Assembly (NCBI GenBank): GCA_028704945.1
Contig: JAQWEL010000003.1
Coordinates: 8,037-72,036 of the forward strand
DNA from: Patescibacteria group bacterium
Lineage (GTDB): Bacteria > Patescibacteriota > Patescibacteriia > Patescibacteriales > Patescibacteriaceae
Direction of reading: 5' to 3'
Length of the DNA: 64,000 bases
The position numbers and the translations under genes were made by a program. Below, piece by piece: positions 23,237 to 42,396 of the stretch. How positions within the stretch are numbered: the stretch's first letter is position 1; every line of letters begins with the position of its first letter. The notes below the pieces were generated by a model. That model was not told the DNA's origin. It saw nothing but the letters and a program-made list of their open reading frames with translations, and searched no databases.

Positions 23237-23507
23237 AAAATAGCCCGTGAAACAAATTGTTTGTTCGCGGGTGATTTTTTAATGTCTTCCATAAATAATA
23301 GGGAAAATGATACCTAGAATAACAGAAAAAAGTACAATACGTGTGTGCACATTACCAATGACTATTGACAAGTTATTAAAAGTATGCTTTTATTTAAAAA
23401 TAATAAAGAACCTTGAAAAACAATGAAGGTTAGTAATAAATCGCAAATTAAGTATCTTAGTTTTCGGCTTATTACTAATTTTTATTCAAAATATATTGGA
23501 GTTTATT

Positions 23508-24047
23508 ATGAGCGCATCTATCAATAACCCAGAATTTGTTTCGGTAAAATTAACGACTGAACAAATAAATTCCATAGTTGAAAAACTTGGTGGTTATGAA
23601 AAAACTCTCGCGTTTTTGCAGGAAGAACCTCAAACAACAACCATCAATCATATCATTGATTGTAACGCCAATCCGTATATTCCAATGGGTTTGACTGTGG
23701 TGGAACATAAGCCAGGCGGATTATTTGAGTTTGACCCGTCAAAAATTTACCTGTATCTGTCTGAAGCGCAAAAAAGTGGCGTTATCAACGGAAATAATTT
23801 AAGAAAATTGTTAGCTGACAAGCCGGTCTTAAACGCTAACGTTCTTGATTATTTACTGGCTCATCCGGAAATTATTCCCGAAGATTGGAAAGGTAAATAT
23901 ATCTTTTTCTGGGGAACGCTTTACCGCTACTCGAATGGCAATCTTTTTGTTCGTTACCTCTACTGGAACGGTTCGAAGTGGAGCTGGAGCTACGGCTGGC
24001 TTGGTGACGAGTTCGATGTCGATTGCCCTGCTGTTCTCGCAAGTTGA
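23508..24047 (+). CDS. DGR target protein (small, no signal peptide) with a C-terminal variable region
   Basis: GGAG RBS 7 nt before the ATG at 23508. The 179-aa protein ends ...IFFWGTLYRYSNGNLFVRYLYWNGSKWSWSYGWLGDEFDVDCPAVLAS, and its last 40 codons form the VR. Confidence 0.85.
   Translation: MSASINNPEFVSVKLTTEQINSIVEKLGGYEKTLAFLQEEPQTTTINHIIDCNANPYIPMGLTVVEHKPGGLFEFDPSKIYLYLSEAQKSGVINGNNLRKLLADKPVLNANVLDYLLAHPEIIPEDWKGKYIFFWGTLYRYSNGNLFVRYLYWNGSKWSWSYGWLGDEFDVDCPAVLAS
23924..24042 (+). repeat. DGR variable region (VR)
   Basis: It aligns gap-free over 119 nt with 24371-24489. The 9 differences are T,T,T,G,G,G,G,G,G opposite template A. Confidence 0.85.
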
Positions 24048-24087
24048 TTTTTGTAACTTAGATCTTTGCTCTTTGGCTTTTACCCTT

Positions 24088-24120
24088 AGATCTTGAAATG
24101 TATAGTACATTCCAAGATCT
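24088..24120 (+). terminator. 15-bp hairpin downstream of the VR (terminator and/or DGR homing-associated structure)
   Basis: AGATCTTGAAATGTA-tag-TACATTCCAAGATCT has one mismatch and is followed by ATTTTTT. The motif CTTAGATCT is also repeated at 24057-24065 and 24085-24093. Confidence 0.55.
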
Positions 24121-24370
24121 ATTTTTTACACAAAATTATGTTAAGATAAAATTGATTAAGGTTAATTTGTGGTTGGTTATGGCTGACCACGACCATAATT
24201 AATATTTTTGTTTTGAGGATATTTACGGCTAAGGCTGAAAATAGAGTGAAATAAAAATATTTTACACAATGAAGAAACTTGGTTTGTGGCGCTAAGGCAT
24301 TATGATGCCGGATAAAATACAGCCCCGAGATTATTCAAGGAGCAGTGACTTAGGTGGCGCTGCAAACATT

Positions 24371-24489
24371 CCGCAACTCGAATGGCAATCTTTATGTTCG
24401 TTACCTCAACTGGAACGGTTCGAAGTGGAACTGGAACTACAACTGGCTTGATAACGAGTTCGATGTCGATTGCCCTGCTGTTCTCGCAA
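24371..24489 (+). repeat. DGR template region (TR)
   Basis: A non-coding copy of the VR that retains the AAC/AAT codons (FRNSNGNLYVRYLNWNGSKWNWNYNWLDNEFDVDCPAVLA). Homology stops abruptly at ...CTCGCAA. Confidence 0.85.
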
Positions 24490-24510
24490 CTCTCTTTATT
24501 TCTCCCTCGC

Positions 24511-24870
24511 TTATTTGGTGGGGGAGTTTTGTTTTGTTAATTGGCCGTTCCAGCCACCCAGCATGCGACCGATTTCATTTATTTTTTCCGATAAGATAAT
24601 ATATTTTTTATTATCCAAGGATTTAGTTTCCCAAAGAATCAAGAGAAAGACTTTAACAGTGTCATTTTTTCTAATGGCTATTTTTATATAGGACTGCTTT
24701 TCTTCTTTAGATAAGAACGAGGCGCTGACGATAGCTTCTATAATTTCCACCAGCAAAACGTCAATCCTGCCACCTAAAGTATAGCGATGCTCTTTGGGCA
24801 GTGTTTTGTAGTAACCATACCATAGAAAATATAGATCTTTGATTTTCTGTAATAAGGGTATTAGTTGCAA
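24511..24870 (-). CDS. four-helix-bundle protein (Avd-like DGR accessory / 23S-IVS protein family)
   Basis: 119 aa, basic, helical, with a TTG start. YTLGGRIDVLLVEIIEAIVSA...INEIGRMLGGW is typical of four-helix-bundle proteins of the Avd type. It lies between TR and RT but on the opposite strand. Confidence 0.7.
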   Translation of the reverse strand: MQLIPLLQKIKDLYFLWYGYYKTLPKEHRYTLGGRIDVLLVEIIEAIVSASFLSKEEKQSYIKIAIRKNDTVKVFLLILWETKSLDNKKYIILSEKINEIGRMLGGWNGQLTKQNSPTK

Positions 24871-24899
24871 ATTCGGCTGGGGGGGGTAACATTAGAAGC

Positions 24900-25417
24900 A
24901 TGAAAATTTTGGATCATAAATTTGAGGAAATTATTAGTTTAGAAAATTTTTGGAAAATATTATTGAAAGTTTTAGAGACAAAGTAACTGATAATGGACTG
25001 CCTTTGGGCAATTTAACTTCGCAACTATTCTCTAATATTTATCTTAATGAATTTGATCATTTTGTTAAGCAAAAGTTTAAAATAAAATACTATATCAGAT
25101 ATGCCGATGATTTTGTAATCTTTAATTCTGATAGAGATTATTTGGTTAAGTTAATCCCATTGCTAAGTAATTTTTTAATACAAAAATTAAAATTAACCCT
25201 GCATCCGCAAAAATTGTTTATTAAAACTTTGGTTTCCGGCATAGATTTTTTAGGTTAGACGCATTTTCCCGAGCATCGTGTTTTGCGGCGAGCGACCAAA
25301 AGAAGAATGTTTAGAAAAATCAGCCTTACTTCTAGCGAAGCGACGGTTAATTCATATTGGGGATTATTGAAAAATGGAAATAGCTACAAATTAAGAAAGC
25401 AACTAAATTTGATTTAA
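24900..25417 (+). pseudogene. DGR-type reverse transcriptase, degraded (internal deletion/frameshift plus in-frame TAG)
   Basis: Three fragments were read. (1) 24900-24986, MKILDHKFEEIISLENFWKILLKVLETK*. (2) 24950-25258 in another frame, ENIIESFRDKVTDNGLPLGNLTSQLFSNIYLNEFD...YYIRYADDFVIF...GIDFLG, carrying the LPxGxxxSQ and YADD motifs. (3) After TAG at 25259-25261 the same frame continues THFPEHRVLRRATKRRMFRKI...SYWGLLKNGNSYKLRKQLNLI*. Confidence 0.8.
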
Positions 25418-42325: not shown

Positions 42326-42396
42326 CGGACTGTAGTATAGTGGCAGTACGCGTGCATGGGGTGCATGTAGCCGCGGTTCGATTCCGCGCAGTCCGA
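42326..42396 (+). tRNA. tRNA-Pro (anticodon GGG)
   Basis: Hand-folded. Acceptor CGGACUG/CAGUCCG (C1-G72, as in bacterial tRNA-Pro), D stem GUAU/GUAC, and anticodon stem CGUGC/GCAUG with loop AUGGGGU (G37). T arm CGCGG-UUCGAUU-CCGCG, discriminator A, no encoded CCA. Confidence 0.85.

What the first reader, a model, noticed from the sequence alone, without database searches (positions are those of the whole stretch)
24900..25417. The DGR reverse transcriptase is visibly broken although the VR still carries an A-mutagenesis signature
The RT survives only as three pieces.
- 24900-24986 encodes MKILDHKFEEIISLENF..., an RT-like N-terminal start that runs into a stop.
- A different frame from 24950 encodes ENIIESFRDKVTDNGLPLGNLTSQ...YYIRYADDFVIF...GIDFLG. 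This carries the LPxGxxxSQ motif and the catalytic YADD box.
- TAG at 25259-25261 interrupts ...GIDFLG*THFPEHRVLRRATKRRMF..., and the same frame continues to 25414. A single G>A change from TGG would create this stop.

The fingers/palm motifs that should lie between ISLENF and ENIIESF are absent; I expect on the order of 150 aa there. GAAAAT occurs on both sides of the junction (TTAGAAAATTTTTGGAAAATATT), which is compatible with a microhomology deletion. Coding capacity is about 180 aa, versus more than 300 aa for functional DGR RTs.

Three explanations are possible: a recently dead DGR frozen with its last VR state, a cassette served in trans by an RT elsewhere in the genome, or an assembly collapse.
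Basis: partly seen in the sequence, partly recalled or inferred. Interest (0 to 1): 0.7.

Follow-up and report, generated by a model that had tools for sequence, protein, structure and literature searches.

The report
Broken reverse transcriptase in a Patescibacteria DGR
A protein-diversifying retroelement (DGR) in an uncultured Patescibacteria genome has lost the front half of its reverse transcriptase gene and gained a stop codon, while all its other parts look intact, so its variable gene is most likely frozen; this is ordinary gene decay in a known kind of element.

Summary
Window 23496-25417 holds a complete cassette of the known Patescibacteria (CPR) DGR type: target gene with VR, then TR, then avd on the opposite strand, then RT.

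- **TR/VR signature.** VR 23924-24042 and TR 24371-24489 differ at 9 positions. All 9 are TR adenines.
- **RT damage.** About 330-aa relatives align to only two stretches. Residues 1-17 match 24900-24950. Residues ~173-328 match 24950-25414 in another frame. About 155 residues are missing, including the motif holding the first catalytic aspartate. They occur nowhere else in the 64 kb.
- **Stop codon.** TAG 25259-25261 replaces a Trp that is invariant in 44 relatives.
- **Not an assembler artefact.** An independent Logan assembly of run SRR22315502 is identical across the junction and the TAG.
- **Rest of the cassette.** Target gene, TR, Avd and two conserved non-coding elements look intact, and no non-A TR/VR mismatch exists. 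The RT therefore died recently.
- **Not unique.** 5 of 73 assessable related loci also have disrupted RTs.

Best reading: a recently inactivated DGR with a frozen VR (about 0.75). Service in trans by another RT cannot be excluded, because only 64 kb was visible. This is a new member of a known kind, of modest interest.

The parts
23496..24047 (+). DGR target gene (183 codons from TTG, 179 from the first ATG), with the VR at its 3' end
   Evidence: ORF. It aligns over residues 47-179 to positions 55-200 (the C-terminus) of the 200-aa target of relative L060 (46% identity, E = 7e-38). Its length is within the range of relatives (median 219 aa). No Pfam or NCBIfam family passes threshold.
23924..24042 (+). 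Variable repeat (VR)
   Evidence: 119-nt direct repeat of the TR at 92% identity. All 9 mismatches are at TR adenines (A>G six times, A>T three times) and lie at 23928-24006. The last 36 nt are identical to the TR. The 9 changes give 8 amino-acid changes, read directly from the codons.
24087..24127 (+). 16-bp inverted repeat followed by TTTTTT, 40 nt after the target gene stop. It looks like the terminator of the target gene.
   Evidence: Inverted repeat I4, arms 24087-24102 and 24106-24121, 94% complementary. The T-run is seen in the sequence. Function is inferred.
24371..24489 (+). Template repeat (TR)
   Evidence: It has 29 adenines, 9 of them substituted in the VR. The TR 3' end occurs only twice in the window, in the TR and the VR, so no further VR lies within 64 kb.
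24490..24536 (+). Conserved post-TR element: CTCTCTTTATTT, a GC-rich hairpin (24502-24526, 10 bp) and TTTTGTTTTG
   Evidence: Terminator-like hit. A hairpin plus T-run of the same kind lies within the scanned stretch from 25 nt before to 75 nt after the TR end in 44 of 51 related loci, against 3.2% of random 100-nt windows. The stems differ in sequence but stay paired. The element is intact in the window.
24511..24870 (-). avd accessory gene (119 aa, four-helix-bundle protein), intact
   Evidence: Pfam bAvd PF22296, E = 7e-13, 49.4 bits against a cut-off of 40. NCBIfam DivGenRetAVD, E = 7e-18, 64.9 bits, below its cut-off of 80. Relatives carry it at the same place and on the same strand. NCBI accession MDD4412414.1.
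24879..24886 (.). G8 homopolymer between the divergent avd and RT starts
   Evidence: It is the only G/C run of 7 or more in the 64 kb window. A 7-12 nt run lies at the same place in 53 of 60 scored loci, the window among them. Function is unknown.
24900..24950 (+). RT fragment 1: codons 1-17 (MKILDHKFEEIISLENF). The ORF then runs out of homology to a stop at 24984-24986.
   Evidence: N-terminal profile E = 3.8e-6, unique in the window.
24948..24954 (+). Deletion junction with a frame change. About 155 codons (residues ~18-172 of relatives) are missing.
   Evidence: Relatives' residues up to 17 align left of this point in frame 1. Residues from 173 align right of it in the frame of 24950. Relatives are 325-335 aa. 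The missing part includes DPKPRxIHKA, SYSCRxxKGTHKA and WxLKCDIxKFF.
24950..25258 (+). RT fragment 2: residues ~173-275, with GLPLGNLTSQ, YIRYADDFVIF, LKLTLHPQK and GIDFLG
   Evidence: Annotated by NCBI as the 102-aa protein MDD4412415.1.
25259..25261 (+). TAG nonsense codon in place of an invariant Trp
   Evidence: All 44 relatives have W at this column. TAG, TGA and TAA all end long ORFs in the window and no long ORF needs read-through.
25262..25417 (+). RT fragment 3: residues ~277-328 (THFPEHRVLRRATKRRM...SYWGLLKNGNSYKL) and the normal stop
   Evidence: Same tblastn match as fragment 2, running across the TAG. Alignment.

Best explanation
This is a canonical Patescibacteria DGR whose reverse transcriptase gene is now a pseudogene. 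The layout is target gene with VR, then TR, then avd on the opposite strand, then RT.

When the element was active, the TR transcript was copied by the RT together with Avd. Adenines were miscopied, and the cDNA replaced the VR. The 9 A-specific differences record this (shown).

Later a deletion of roughly 465 nt removed RT codons ~18-172 and shifted the frame. The lost part comprises the fingers region and the palm motif with the first catalytic aspartate. A G>A change also turned an invariant Trp codon into TAG (shown). The order of the two events is unknown.

Without these parts the locus cannot make an active RT. Its own mutagenic homing has therefore stopped, and the VR is fixed in its last state (inferred).

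The inactivation is recent in evolutionary terms. TR, VR, target gene, Avd, the post-TR hairpin and the G tract are all intact, and the surviving RT segment still keeps nearly all family-invariant residues (shown). Recency is inferred from that.
For: - **TR/VR.** 119 nt, 9 of 9 mismatches at TR adenines, none at the 90 non-A positions.
- **RT coverage.** Relatives of 325-335 aa align only over residues 1-17 and 173-328, in two frames. Nothing matches residues 18-172 anywhere in the 64 kb. Pfam RVT_1 covers only profile positions 111-204 of 205.
- **Stop codon.** TAG lies at a column that is W in 44 of 44 relatives.
- **Independent assembly.** Logan contig SRR22315502_6131 starts at window 24460, inside the TR. 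It is identical over 10,799 nt apart from one distant base.
- **Cassette geometry is typical.** VR length is 119 nt (median 127), VR-TR gap 329 nt (median 339), TR-RT gap 411 nt (median 362.5), and avd sits antisense as in relatives. Published work calls this layout architecture B3, found in 90% of CPR DGRs (PMC5758913).
- **Limited decay of the remnant.** It deviates at 1 of 39 invariant columns (the TAG) and at 10 of 78 columns conserved at 80% or more. Relatives deviate at 3.7 on average, with a maximum of 13.
- **Comparable decay elsewhere.** L022, L044, L050, L064 and L069 are disrupted, 5 of 73 assessable loci.
Against: - Only 64 kb of a 153-kb contig, and none of the rest of the genome, could be searched. 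An intact RT elsewhere is not excluded.
- No reads were available, so a minority intact allele cannot be ruled out.
- No close orthologue exists in the databases. The best RT match is 69% identical, and both proteins are singletons at 90% identity. The deletion endpoints are therefore known only at protein-alignment resolution.
- Zero non-A TR/VR mismatches is also what continuing homing by a trans-acting RT would give.
- The window has the lowest fraction of substituted TR adenines among 51 loci, 0.31, tied with L033. This is unexplained.
Confidence: 0.75

Rival explanations
1. The cassette is still in use. Its TR RNA and its own Avd are served in trans by an intact RT of the same clade encoded elsewhere in the genome, so the VR keeps being rewritten although the local RT is dead.
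For: - TR, the post-TR hairpin, Avd, the G tract and the target gene are all intact, and TR and VR have no non-A differences.
- Several related genomes carry two DGRs of this clade. L002 and L012 lie on one contig. L073 has two avd genes and two TR/VR pairs. L005/L015, L035/L037 and L043/L075 each come from one MAG.
- The sequence just after the TR is conserved across the clade. Cross-recognition is therefore conceivable, but this is inference.
Against: - There is no second RT and no further TR-like repeat in the 64 kb window.
- By my knowledge of the Bordetella phage system, RT-Avd needs specific RNA flanks, so a paralogue may not accept a foreign TR.
- The intact state of the other parts is equally explained by recent inactivation.
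Confidence: 0.17
2. The deletion or the TAG is an assembly or consensus artefact, or a minority allele, and the real dominant gene is intact.
For: Metagenome assemblies often break or mis-join at DGRs. No reads could be inspected. Both assemblies may rest on the same reads.
Against: - Two assemblies made with different software agree base for base across 24460-25417.
- The Logan contig breaks exactly where a 36-nt exact repeat (TR/VR 3' end) would break a k=31 graph. It does not break at the deletion junction.
- The only repeat at the junction is 6 nt long, far too short to collapse an assembly.
Confidence: 0.05
3. The gene is expressed by recoding: a -1 ribosomal frameshift at the heptamer A_AAT_TTT (24944-24950) joins pieces 1 and 2, and the TAG is read through.
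For: The heptamer fits the X_XXY_YYZ pattern in the frame of piece 1, and the frame of piece 2 is -1 relative to it (read). TAG is rare as a terminator here, ending 1 of 39 long ORFs.
Against: - Even the fused product would lack about 155 residues, including the motif with the first catalytic aspartate.
- To my knowledge no known genetic code reads TAG as Trp.
- Long ORFs in the window are not interrupted by TAG.
- Intact relatives have a single ORF with no frameshift.
Confidence: 0.01

Closest known systems
Patescibacteria/CPR DGRs with architecture B3, TR-(avd)-RT (Wu et al. 2017, PMC5758913); the Patescibacteria-restricted DGR clade 2 of Roux et al. 2021 (PMC8144416)
   Same: The order and orientation of target/VR, TR, antisense avd and RT are the same. 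Spacing, VR length and the small C-terminal-VR target protein match. The RT remnant is 60-68% identical to these RTs. The A-only TR/VR mismatches, the post-TR hairpin and the G tract are shared.
   Different: The RT lacks residues ~18-172 and carries a TAG, so the element cannot supply its own RT. Its fraction of substituted adenines is the lowest of 51 loci (0.31 against a median of 0.545).
Bordetella phage BPP-1 DGR (prototype: mtd/VR, avd, TR, brt)
   Same: It has the same component set and the same adenine-specific mutagenesis signature. Avd is of the bAvd family. RT motif 4 carries the SQ signature.
   Different: Here avd lies on the opposite strand between TR and RT, and the element is chromosomal, next to murC and murB. 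The target protein has no recognisable family. The RT is broken.
Other disrupted DGR RTs in related Patescibacteria genomes (L022, L044, L050, L064, L069; protein P0048)
   Same: RT is damaged by a deletion towards the 5' part of the gene or by a nonsense codon. Three of the five (L022, L044, L050) plus L064 keep a TR/VR pair with A-specific mismatches and 0-3 non-A mismatches; L069 has no TR/VR.
   Different: In L022, L044 and L050 the deletion also removes avd and the G tract. In the window avd, the G tract and the first 17 RT codons survive, and a second lesion (TAG) is present.

Membership tests
Diversity-generating retroelement (DGR) | A TR/VR repeat pair whose differences fall at adenines of the TR | tested here: met
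   119 nt, 9 of 9 mismatches at TR adenines, 0 of 90 non-A positions differ.
Diversity-generating retroelement (DGR) | The VR lies inside a protein-coding target gene, typically at its 3' end | tested here: met
   The VR occupies the last 41 codons of ORF 23496-24047. The stop follows 2 nt after the repeat.
Diversity-generating retroelement (DGR) | An RT of the DGR clade next to the TR (motif 4 with the LGxxxSQ signature, YxDD box) | tested here: met
   GLPLGNLTSQ and YIRYADDFVIF are present. The remnant is 60-68% identical to RTs that sit in complete TR/VR/avd cassettes.
Functional (autonomous) DGR | A complete, uninterrupted RT ORF with all seven RT motifs | tested here: not met
   Residues ~18-172 (motifs 1-3) are absent, the frame changes at 24948-24954, and TAG replaces an invariant W.
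Functional (autonomous) DGR | Ongoing VR diversification in the population | not testable with these tools
   This needs read-level SNV data or a time series, and none was available.
CPR-type DGR, architecture B3 (TR-(avd)-RT) | An avd gene of the bAvd family between TR and RT on the opposite strand | tested here: met
   PF22296 scores 49.4 bits against a cut-off of 40. The gene lies at 24511-24870 on the minus strand. Relatives in the 80 related loci show the same placement. The definition of the architecture comes from PMC5758913.
NCBIfam DivGenRetAVD (NF033474) | A score above the curated cut-off | tested here: not met
   64.9 bits against a cut-off of 80. The protein is a divergent Avd, recognised by the Pfam model instead.

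The most novel reading that the evidence does not exclude
RT-less cassettes of this clade might not be dead. They could be satellites that keep an intact TR RNA unit and Avd and are rewritten by the RT of a second DGR in the same cell. Alternatively, loss of the RT 5' half could be a recurrent, selected way to lock in a useful VR variant. Both readings would explain why all four RT-deleted loci seen here (the window, L022, L044, L050) still have TR/VR pairs with 0-3 non-A mismatches.
Probability: 0.15. Interest if true: 0.55.

Novelty: new member of a known kind. Interest (0 to 1): 0.3.

Why it matters
For annotation, this locus should be called a DGR with an RT pseudogene, not an active DGR. 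NCBI currently lists a 102-aa "RNA-directed DNA polymerase".

For DGR biology it gives a dated snapshot. The RT is dead, yet every other part is intact. The same pattern in about 7% of related species-representative loci suggests two possibilities. Either such cassettes are lost quickly after the RT dies, or they are kept alive in trans. Read-level data from the source sample could decide between these.

It is not a new mechanism.

Tried and rejected
- **Second RT or displaced fragment.** I looked in the 64 kb for another RT or for the missing piece moved elsewhere, using tblastn with five full-length relatives. Nothing was found.
- **Further VRs.** The TR 3' end occurs only in the TR and the VR.
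- **Close orthologue to map the deletion at nucleotide level.** The 5.8-billion-protein search gave only the protein itself at 100%, then 68% or less. GTDB genomes gave at most 69%. Both the RT fragment and Avd are singleton clusters.
- **Microhomology deletion between the two GAAAAT copies.** Rejected as stated, because both copies are still present.
- **Frameshift plus read-through.** Rejected, because the product would still lack motifs 1-3.
- **TAG reassignment.** Rejected.
- **Rfam.** It reports only a tRNA at 42326-42396 and nothing in the cassette.
- **RNAalifold on a MAFFT alignment of the post-TR region.** It gave no structure because the variable-length stems were misaligned. I replaced it with a per-sequence hairpin search with a random-window control.
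- **Literature.** Searches for a poly-G tract or for degenerate RTs in CPR DGRs found nothing specific. Paul et al. 2017 (PMC5436926) is not held.

Full report
**1. What is in the sequence**

The stretch 23496-25417 is a compact cassette on the + strand, with one gene on the - strand.

ORF 23496-24047 (183 codons) ends in a 119-nt stretch, 23924-24042. This stretch is repeated at 24371-24489 with 92% identity. Aligned base by base, the two copies differ at 9 positions. At every one the downstream copy has A and the upstream copy has G (six times) or T (three times). None of the 90 non-A positions differs, and the last 36 nt are identical. This is the adenine-specific signature of a DGR, with 24371-24489 as template repeat (TR) and 23924-24042 as variable repeat (VR). 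Read as codons, the 9 changes give 8 amino-acid changes, mostly at AAC (Asn) codons of the TR.

Between TR and RT, on the minus strand, ORF 24511-24870 encodes a 119-aa protein. It matches Pfam bAvd above threshold (PF22296, 49.4 bits, cut-off 40). It also matches NCBIfam DivGenRetAVD, but below that model's cut-off (64.9 against 80 bits).

**2.

- ORF 24900-24986 starts with MKILDHKFEEIISLENF.
- The frame beginning at 24950 encodes LENIIESFRDKVTDNGLPLGNLTSQ...YYIRYADDFVIF...GIDFLG.
- TAG follows at 25259-25261.
- The same frame then continues with THFPEHRVLRRATKRRMF... to 25414.
- With the TAG read as Trp, Pfam RVT_1 matches only profile positions 111-204 of 205.

A scan of one genome per GTDB species returned 80 related loci, nearly all labelled Patescibacteria or unclassified MAGs. 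In 69 of the 73 loci where the whole gene should be on the contig, the RT frame is open for 320 codons or more. One of these (L022) is nonetheless deleted, as section 5 shows. The proteins are typically 325-335 aa.

tblastn of five such full-length RTs against the window gives two matches. Residues 173-328 align to 24950-25414 as one collinear match that runs across the TAG (60-68% identity, E about 1e-56). Residues 1-17 (up to 1-27, depending on the relative) align to 24900-24947 (at most 24968) in the other frame. Nothing in the window matches residues 18-172.

The short N-terminal match is real. A profile of the first 22 residues of 44 relatives finds it as the single significant hit among 2,995 six-frame segments (E = 3.8e-6). 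It also sits where relatives have their RT start, a few tens of nt from the divergent avd start.

The missing 155 or so residues include the conserved blocks DPKPRxIHKA..VRDRLLHHA, SYSCRxxKGTHKA and WxLKCDIxKFFxSID. By the standard RT motif scheme (my knowledge), these are motifs 1-3, and the Asp of the CDI block is the first catalytic aspartate. The remnant keeps motif 4 (LGNLTSQ), motif 5 (YADD) and the thumb-proximal region.

The TAG lies at a column where 44 of 44 relatives have Trp. A single TGG>TAG transition explains it. TAG is not a sense codon here. Long ORFs in the window end with TAA (36), TGA (2) and TAG (1), and none needs read-through.

**3. Real deletion or artefact?**

The 102-aa fragment is NCBI protein MDD4412415.1, on a 153-kb contig of a "Patescibacteria group bacterium" MAG. 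The same protein is also encoded on a Logan contig assembled independently from run SRR22315502.

That contig starts at window position 24460, inside the TR. It is identical to the window over 10,799 nt except for one base about 6.5 kb away. It therefore breaks exactly where the 36-nt exact TR/VR repeat would break a short-k graph, and it runs straight through the deletion junction and the TAG.

The only repeat at the junction is the 6-nt GAAAAT, which cannot collapse an assembly. I could not inspect reads, so a minority intact allele remains possible. An assembler-specific artefact is unlikely.

**4. The junction**

A deletion between two direct repeats leaves one copy, and here both remain. 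The left copy encodes the conserved E-N of ..SLEN(L)... The right copy encodes E-N of LENIIESF, which aligns with LLQEIIESF or ERVIKSF of relatives. The break lies in TTTTTGG between them. Without an orthologue closer than 69% identity, the endpoints cannot be placed at nucleotide level.

The heptamer A_AAT_TTT at 24944-24950 happens to fit a -1 slippery pattern, and piece 2 is in the -1 frame. Even so, a fused product would still lack motifs 1-3, so I do not consider recoding a serious option.

**5. Context: a known kind of DGR, and decay is not rare**

In the related loci the order is always VR, about 340 nt, TR, antisense avd, RT. Wu et al. 2017 call this architecture B3, TR-(avd)-RT, and report it for 90% of CPR DGRs (PMC5758913). 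Roux et al. 2021 describe a Patescibacteria-restricted DGR clade 2 (PMC8144416).

| Feature | Window | Median of relatives |
|---|---|---|
| VR length (nt) | 119 | 127 |
| Target protein (aa) | 179 | 219 |
| VR-TR gap (nt) | 329 | 339 |
| TR-RT gap (nt) | 411 | 362.5 |

The window's geometry is typical. The target protein aligns to the C-terminus of the target of L060.

Other loci are damaged too:
- L022 has lost everything from the post-TR hairpin to RT residue 45.
- L044 and L050 have lost most of avd and the first ~187 and ~70 RT residues.
- L064 has an in-frame TGA.
- L069 lacks the first 52 residues and has no TR/VR.
- L062 has an in-frame TAG, but lies at a contig end.
- Protein P0048 has an in-frame internal deletion of motifs 2-3.

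Five of 73 assessable loci (about 7%) are disrupted.

One caveat applies. The loci were found with the RT C-terminus as query, so losses of the 3' half would not be seen.

**6. How recent?**

The surviving 155 residues deviate from the family at only 1 of 39 invariant columns, namely the TAG. They deviate at 2 of 54 columns conserved at 95% or more, and at 10 of 78 columns conserved at 80% or more. By leave-one-out, relatives average 0.16, 0.86 and 3.7 deviations, with a maximum of 13 at the last level. This is a slight excess at most.

TR and VR have no non-A difference. The median in relatives with intact RTs is 1. Avd, the target gene and two conserved non-coding elements are intact. All of this points to a recent inactivation.

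It is also what continued homing by an RT supplied in trans would produce. Several related genomes hold two DGRs of this clade. This rival cannot be dismissed, although the window itself has no second RT and no further VR.

**7. Verdict**

| Reading | Estimated probability |
|---|---|
| Recently pseudogenised RT in an otherwise intact CPR-type DGR, VR frozen in its last state | about 0.75 |
| Cassette served in trans | about 0.17 |
| Artefact or minority allele | about 0.05 |
| Recoding | about 0.01 |

It is a new (defective) member of a known kind. Interest is modest.

**8. Seen on the way**

Two conserved non-coding features of this DGR clade stood out. I found no description of them in the papers I could search.

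- **Post-TR hairpin.** A GC-rich hairpin followed by a T-run lies right after the TR. It is present in 44 of 51 loci against 3.2% of random windows, and 25 different outer-stem sequences all stay paired.
- **G/C homopolymer.** A run of 7-12 nt lies between the divergent avd and RT starts. It is present in 53 of 60 scored loci, the window among them. There are 52 such runs at RT starts against 19 in the other ~740 kb, and it is the only such run in the window.
  - In 13 of the 53 loci, an ATG upstream of the run is in frame with avd through the run.
  - In the other 40 the ATG is out of frame, and 20 of those have no ATG, GTG or TTG between the run and the conserved start of Avd.
  - Five of the seven loci without the run carry a (CT)n tract at the same place.

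This pattern looks like a slippage-prone switch at the avd start, but I did not test that idea.

Noticed in passing
window 24879-24886; the same position in L001-L080: A G8 homopolymer lies between the divergent avd and RT start codons. It is the only G/C run of 7 or more in the 64 kb. A 7-12 nt run (mode 10) lies at the same place in 53 of 60 scored loci, the window among them. There are 52 such runs at RT starts against 19 in the other ~740 kb. Five of the seven loci lacking it have a (CT)n tract there instead. An ATG upstream of the run on the avd strand is in frame with avd in 13 of the 53 loci and out of frame in 40, and 20 of those 40 have no ATG/GTG/TTG downstream of the run. In the window, C9 would put ATG 24917 in frame and C7 would put ATG 24901 in frame. 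It may be a slippage-prone switch for avd. I found no description in the searchable literature.
   Followed up: partly
window 24490-24536 (hairpin 24502-24526); related loci just after their TR: The conserved motif CGAAACTCTCTTCATTT is followed by a GC-rich hairpin and a T-run right after the TR. This is found in 44 of 51 loci against 3.2% of random windows. There are 25 distinct outer-stem sequences and all stay paired. It looks like an intrinsic terminator that would end the TR transcript before avd and RT. It overlaps the last codons of avd on the other strand. RNAalifold on the MAFFT alignment failed.
   Followed up: partly
L022:5600-5700, L044:2790-3000, L050:3950-4120, L064:5578-5580, L069, L062:377-379, protein P0048: Other Patescibacteria DGRs have disrupted RTs. 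Three have deletions that remove avd, the G tract and the RT 5' part but keep a TR/VR pair with 18-22 A-specific mismatches. Two have in-frame stops. One is a remnant without TR/VR. One protein has an in-frame loss of motifs 2-3. Five of 73 assessable loci are disrupted.
   Followed up: partly
window 24944-24950: The heptamer A_AAT_TTT fits a -1 slippery pattern exactly at the deletion junction, and the downstream RT frame is -1. I judge it a coincidence of AT-rich sequence, because the fused product would still lack motifs 1-3.
   Followed up: yes
window 23924-24042 against 24371-24489: Only 9 of the 29 TR adenines (0.31) are substituted in the VR. This is the lowest fraction among 51 loci of the clade, tied with L033; the median is 0.545. 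This is unexplained.
   Followed up: no
window 24087-24127: A 16-bp AT-rich perfect-looking hairpin followed by TTTTTT lies 40 nt after the target gene stop. It is probably the target gene's terminator. By my knowledge of the Bordetella phage element, DGRs can also have a hairpin after the VR that is needed for homing.
   Followed up: no
L002 and L012 (same contig JBBTYZ010000028.1); L073; L005/L015; L035/L037; L043/L075: Several Patescibacteria genomes carry two DGRs of this clade, sometimes a few kb apart. This makes RT supply in trans conceivable in this group.
   Followed up: no
window, all ORFs of 200 aa or more: Stop-codon use is strongly skewed: TAA 36, TGA 2, TAG 1. The GC content is 36%.
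   Followed up: no
window 24354-24599 (+): The 81-codon ORF listed here is simply the TR read in the frame of the VR and running on into the antisense of avd. It is not an independent gene.
   Followed up: yes
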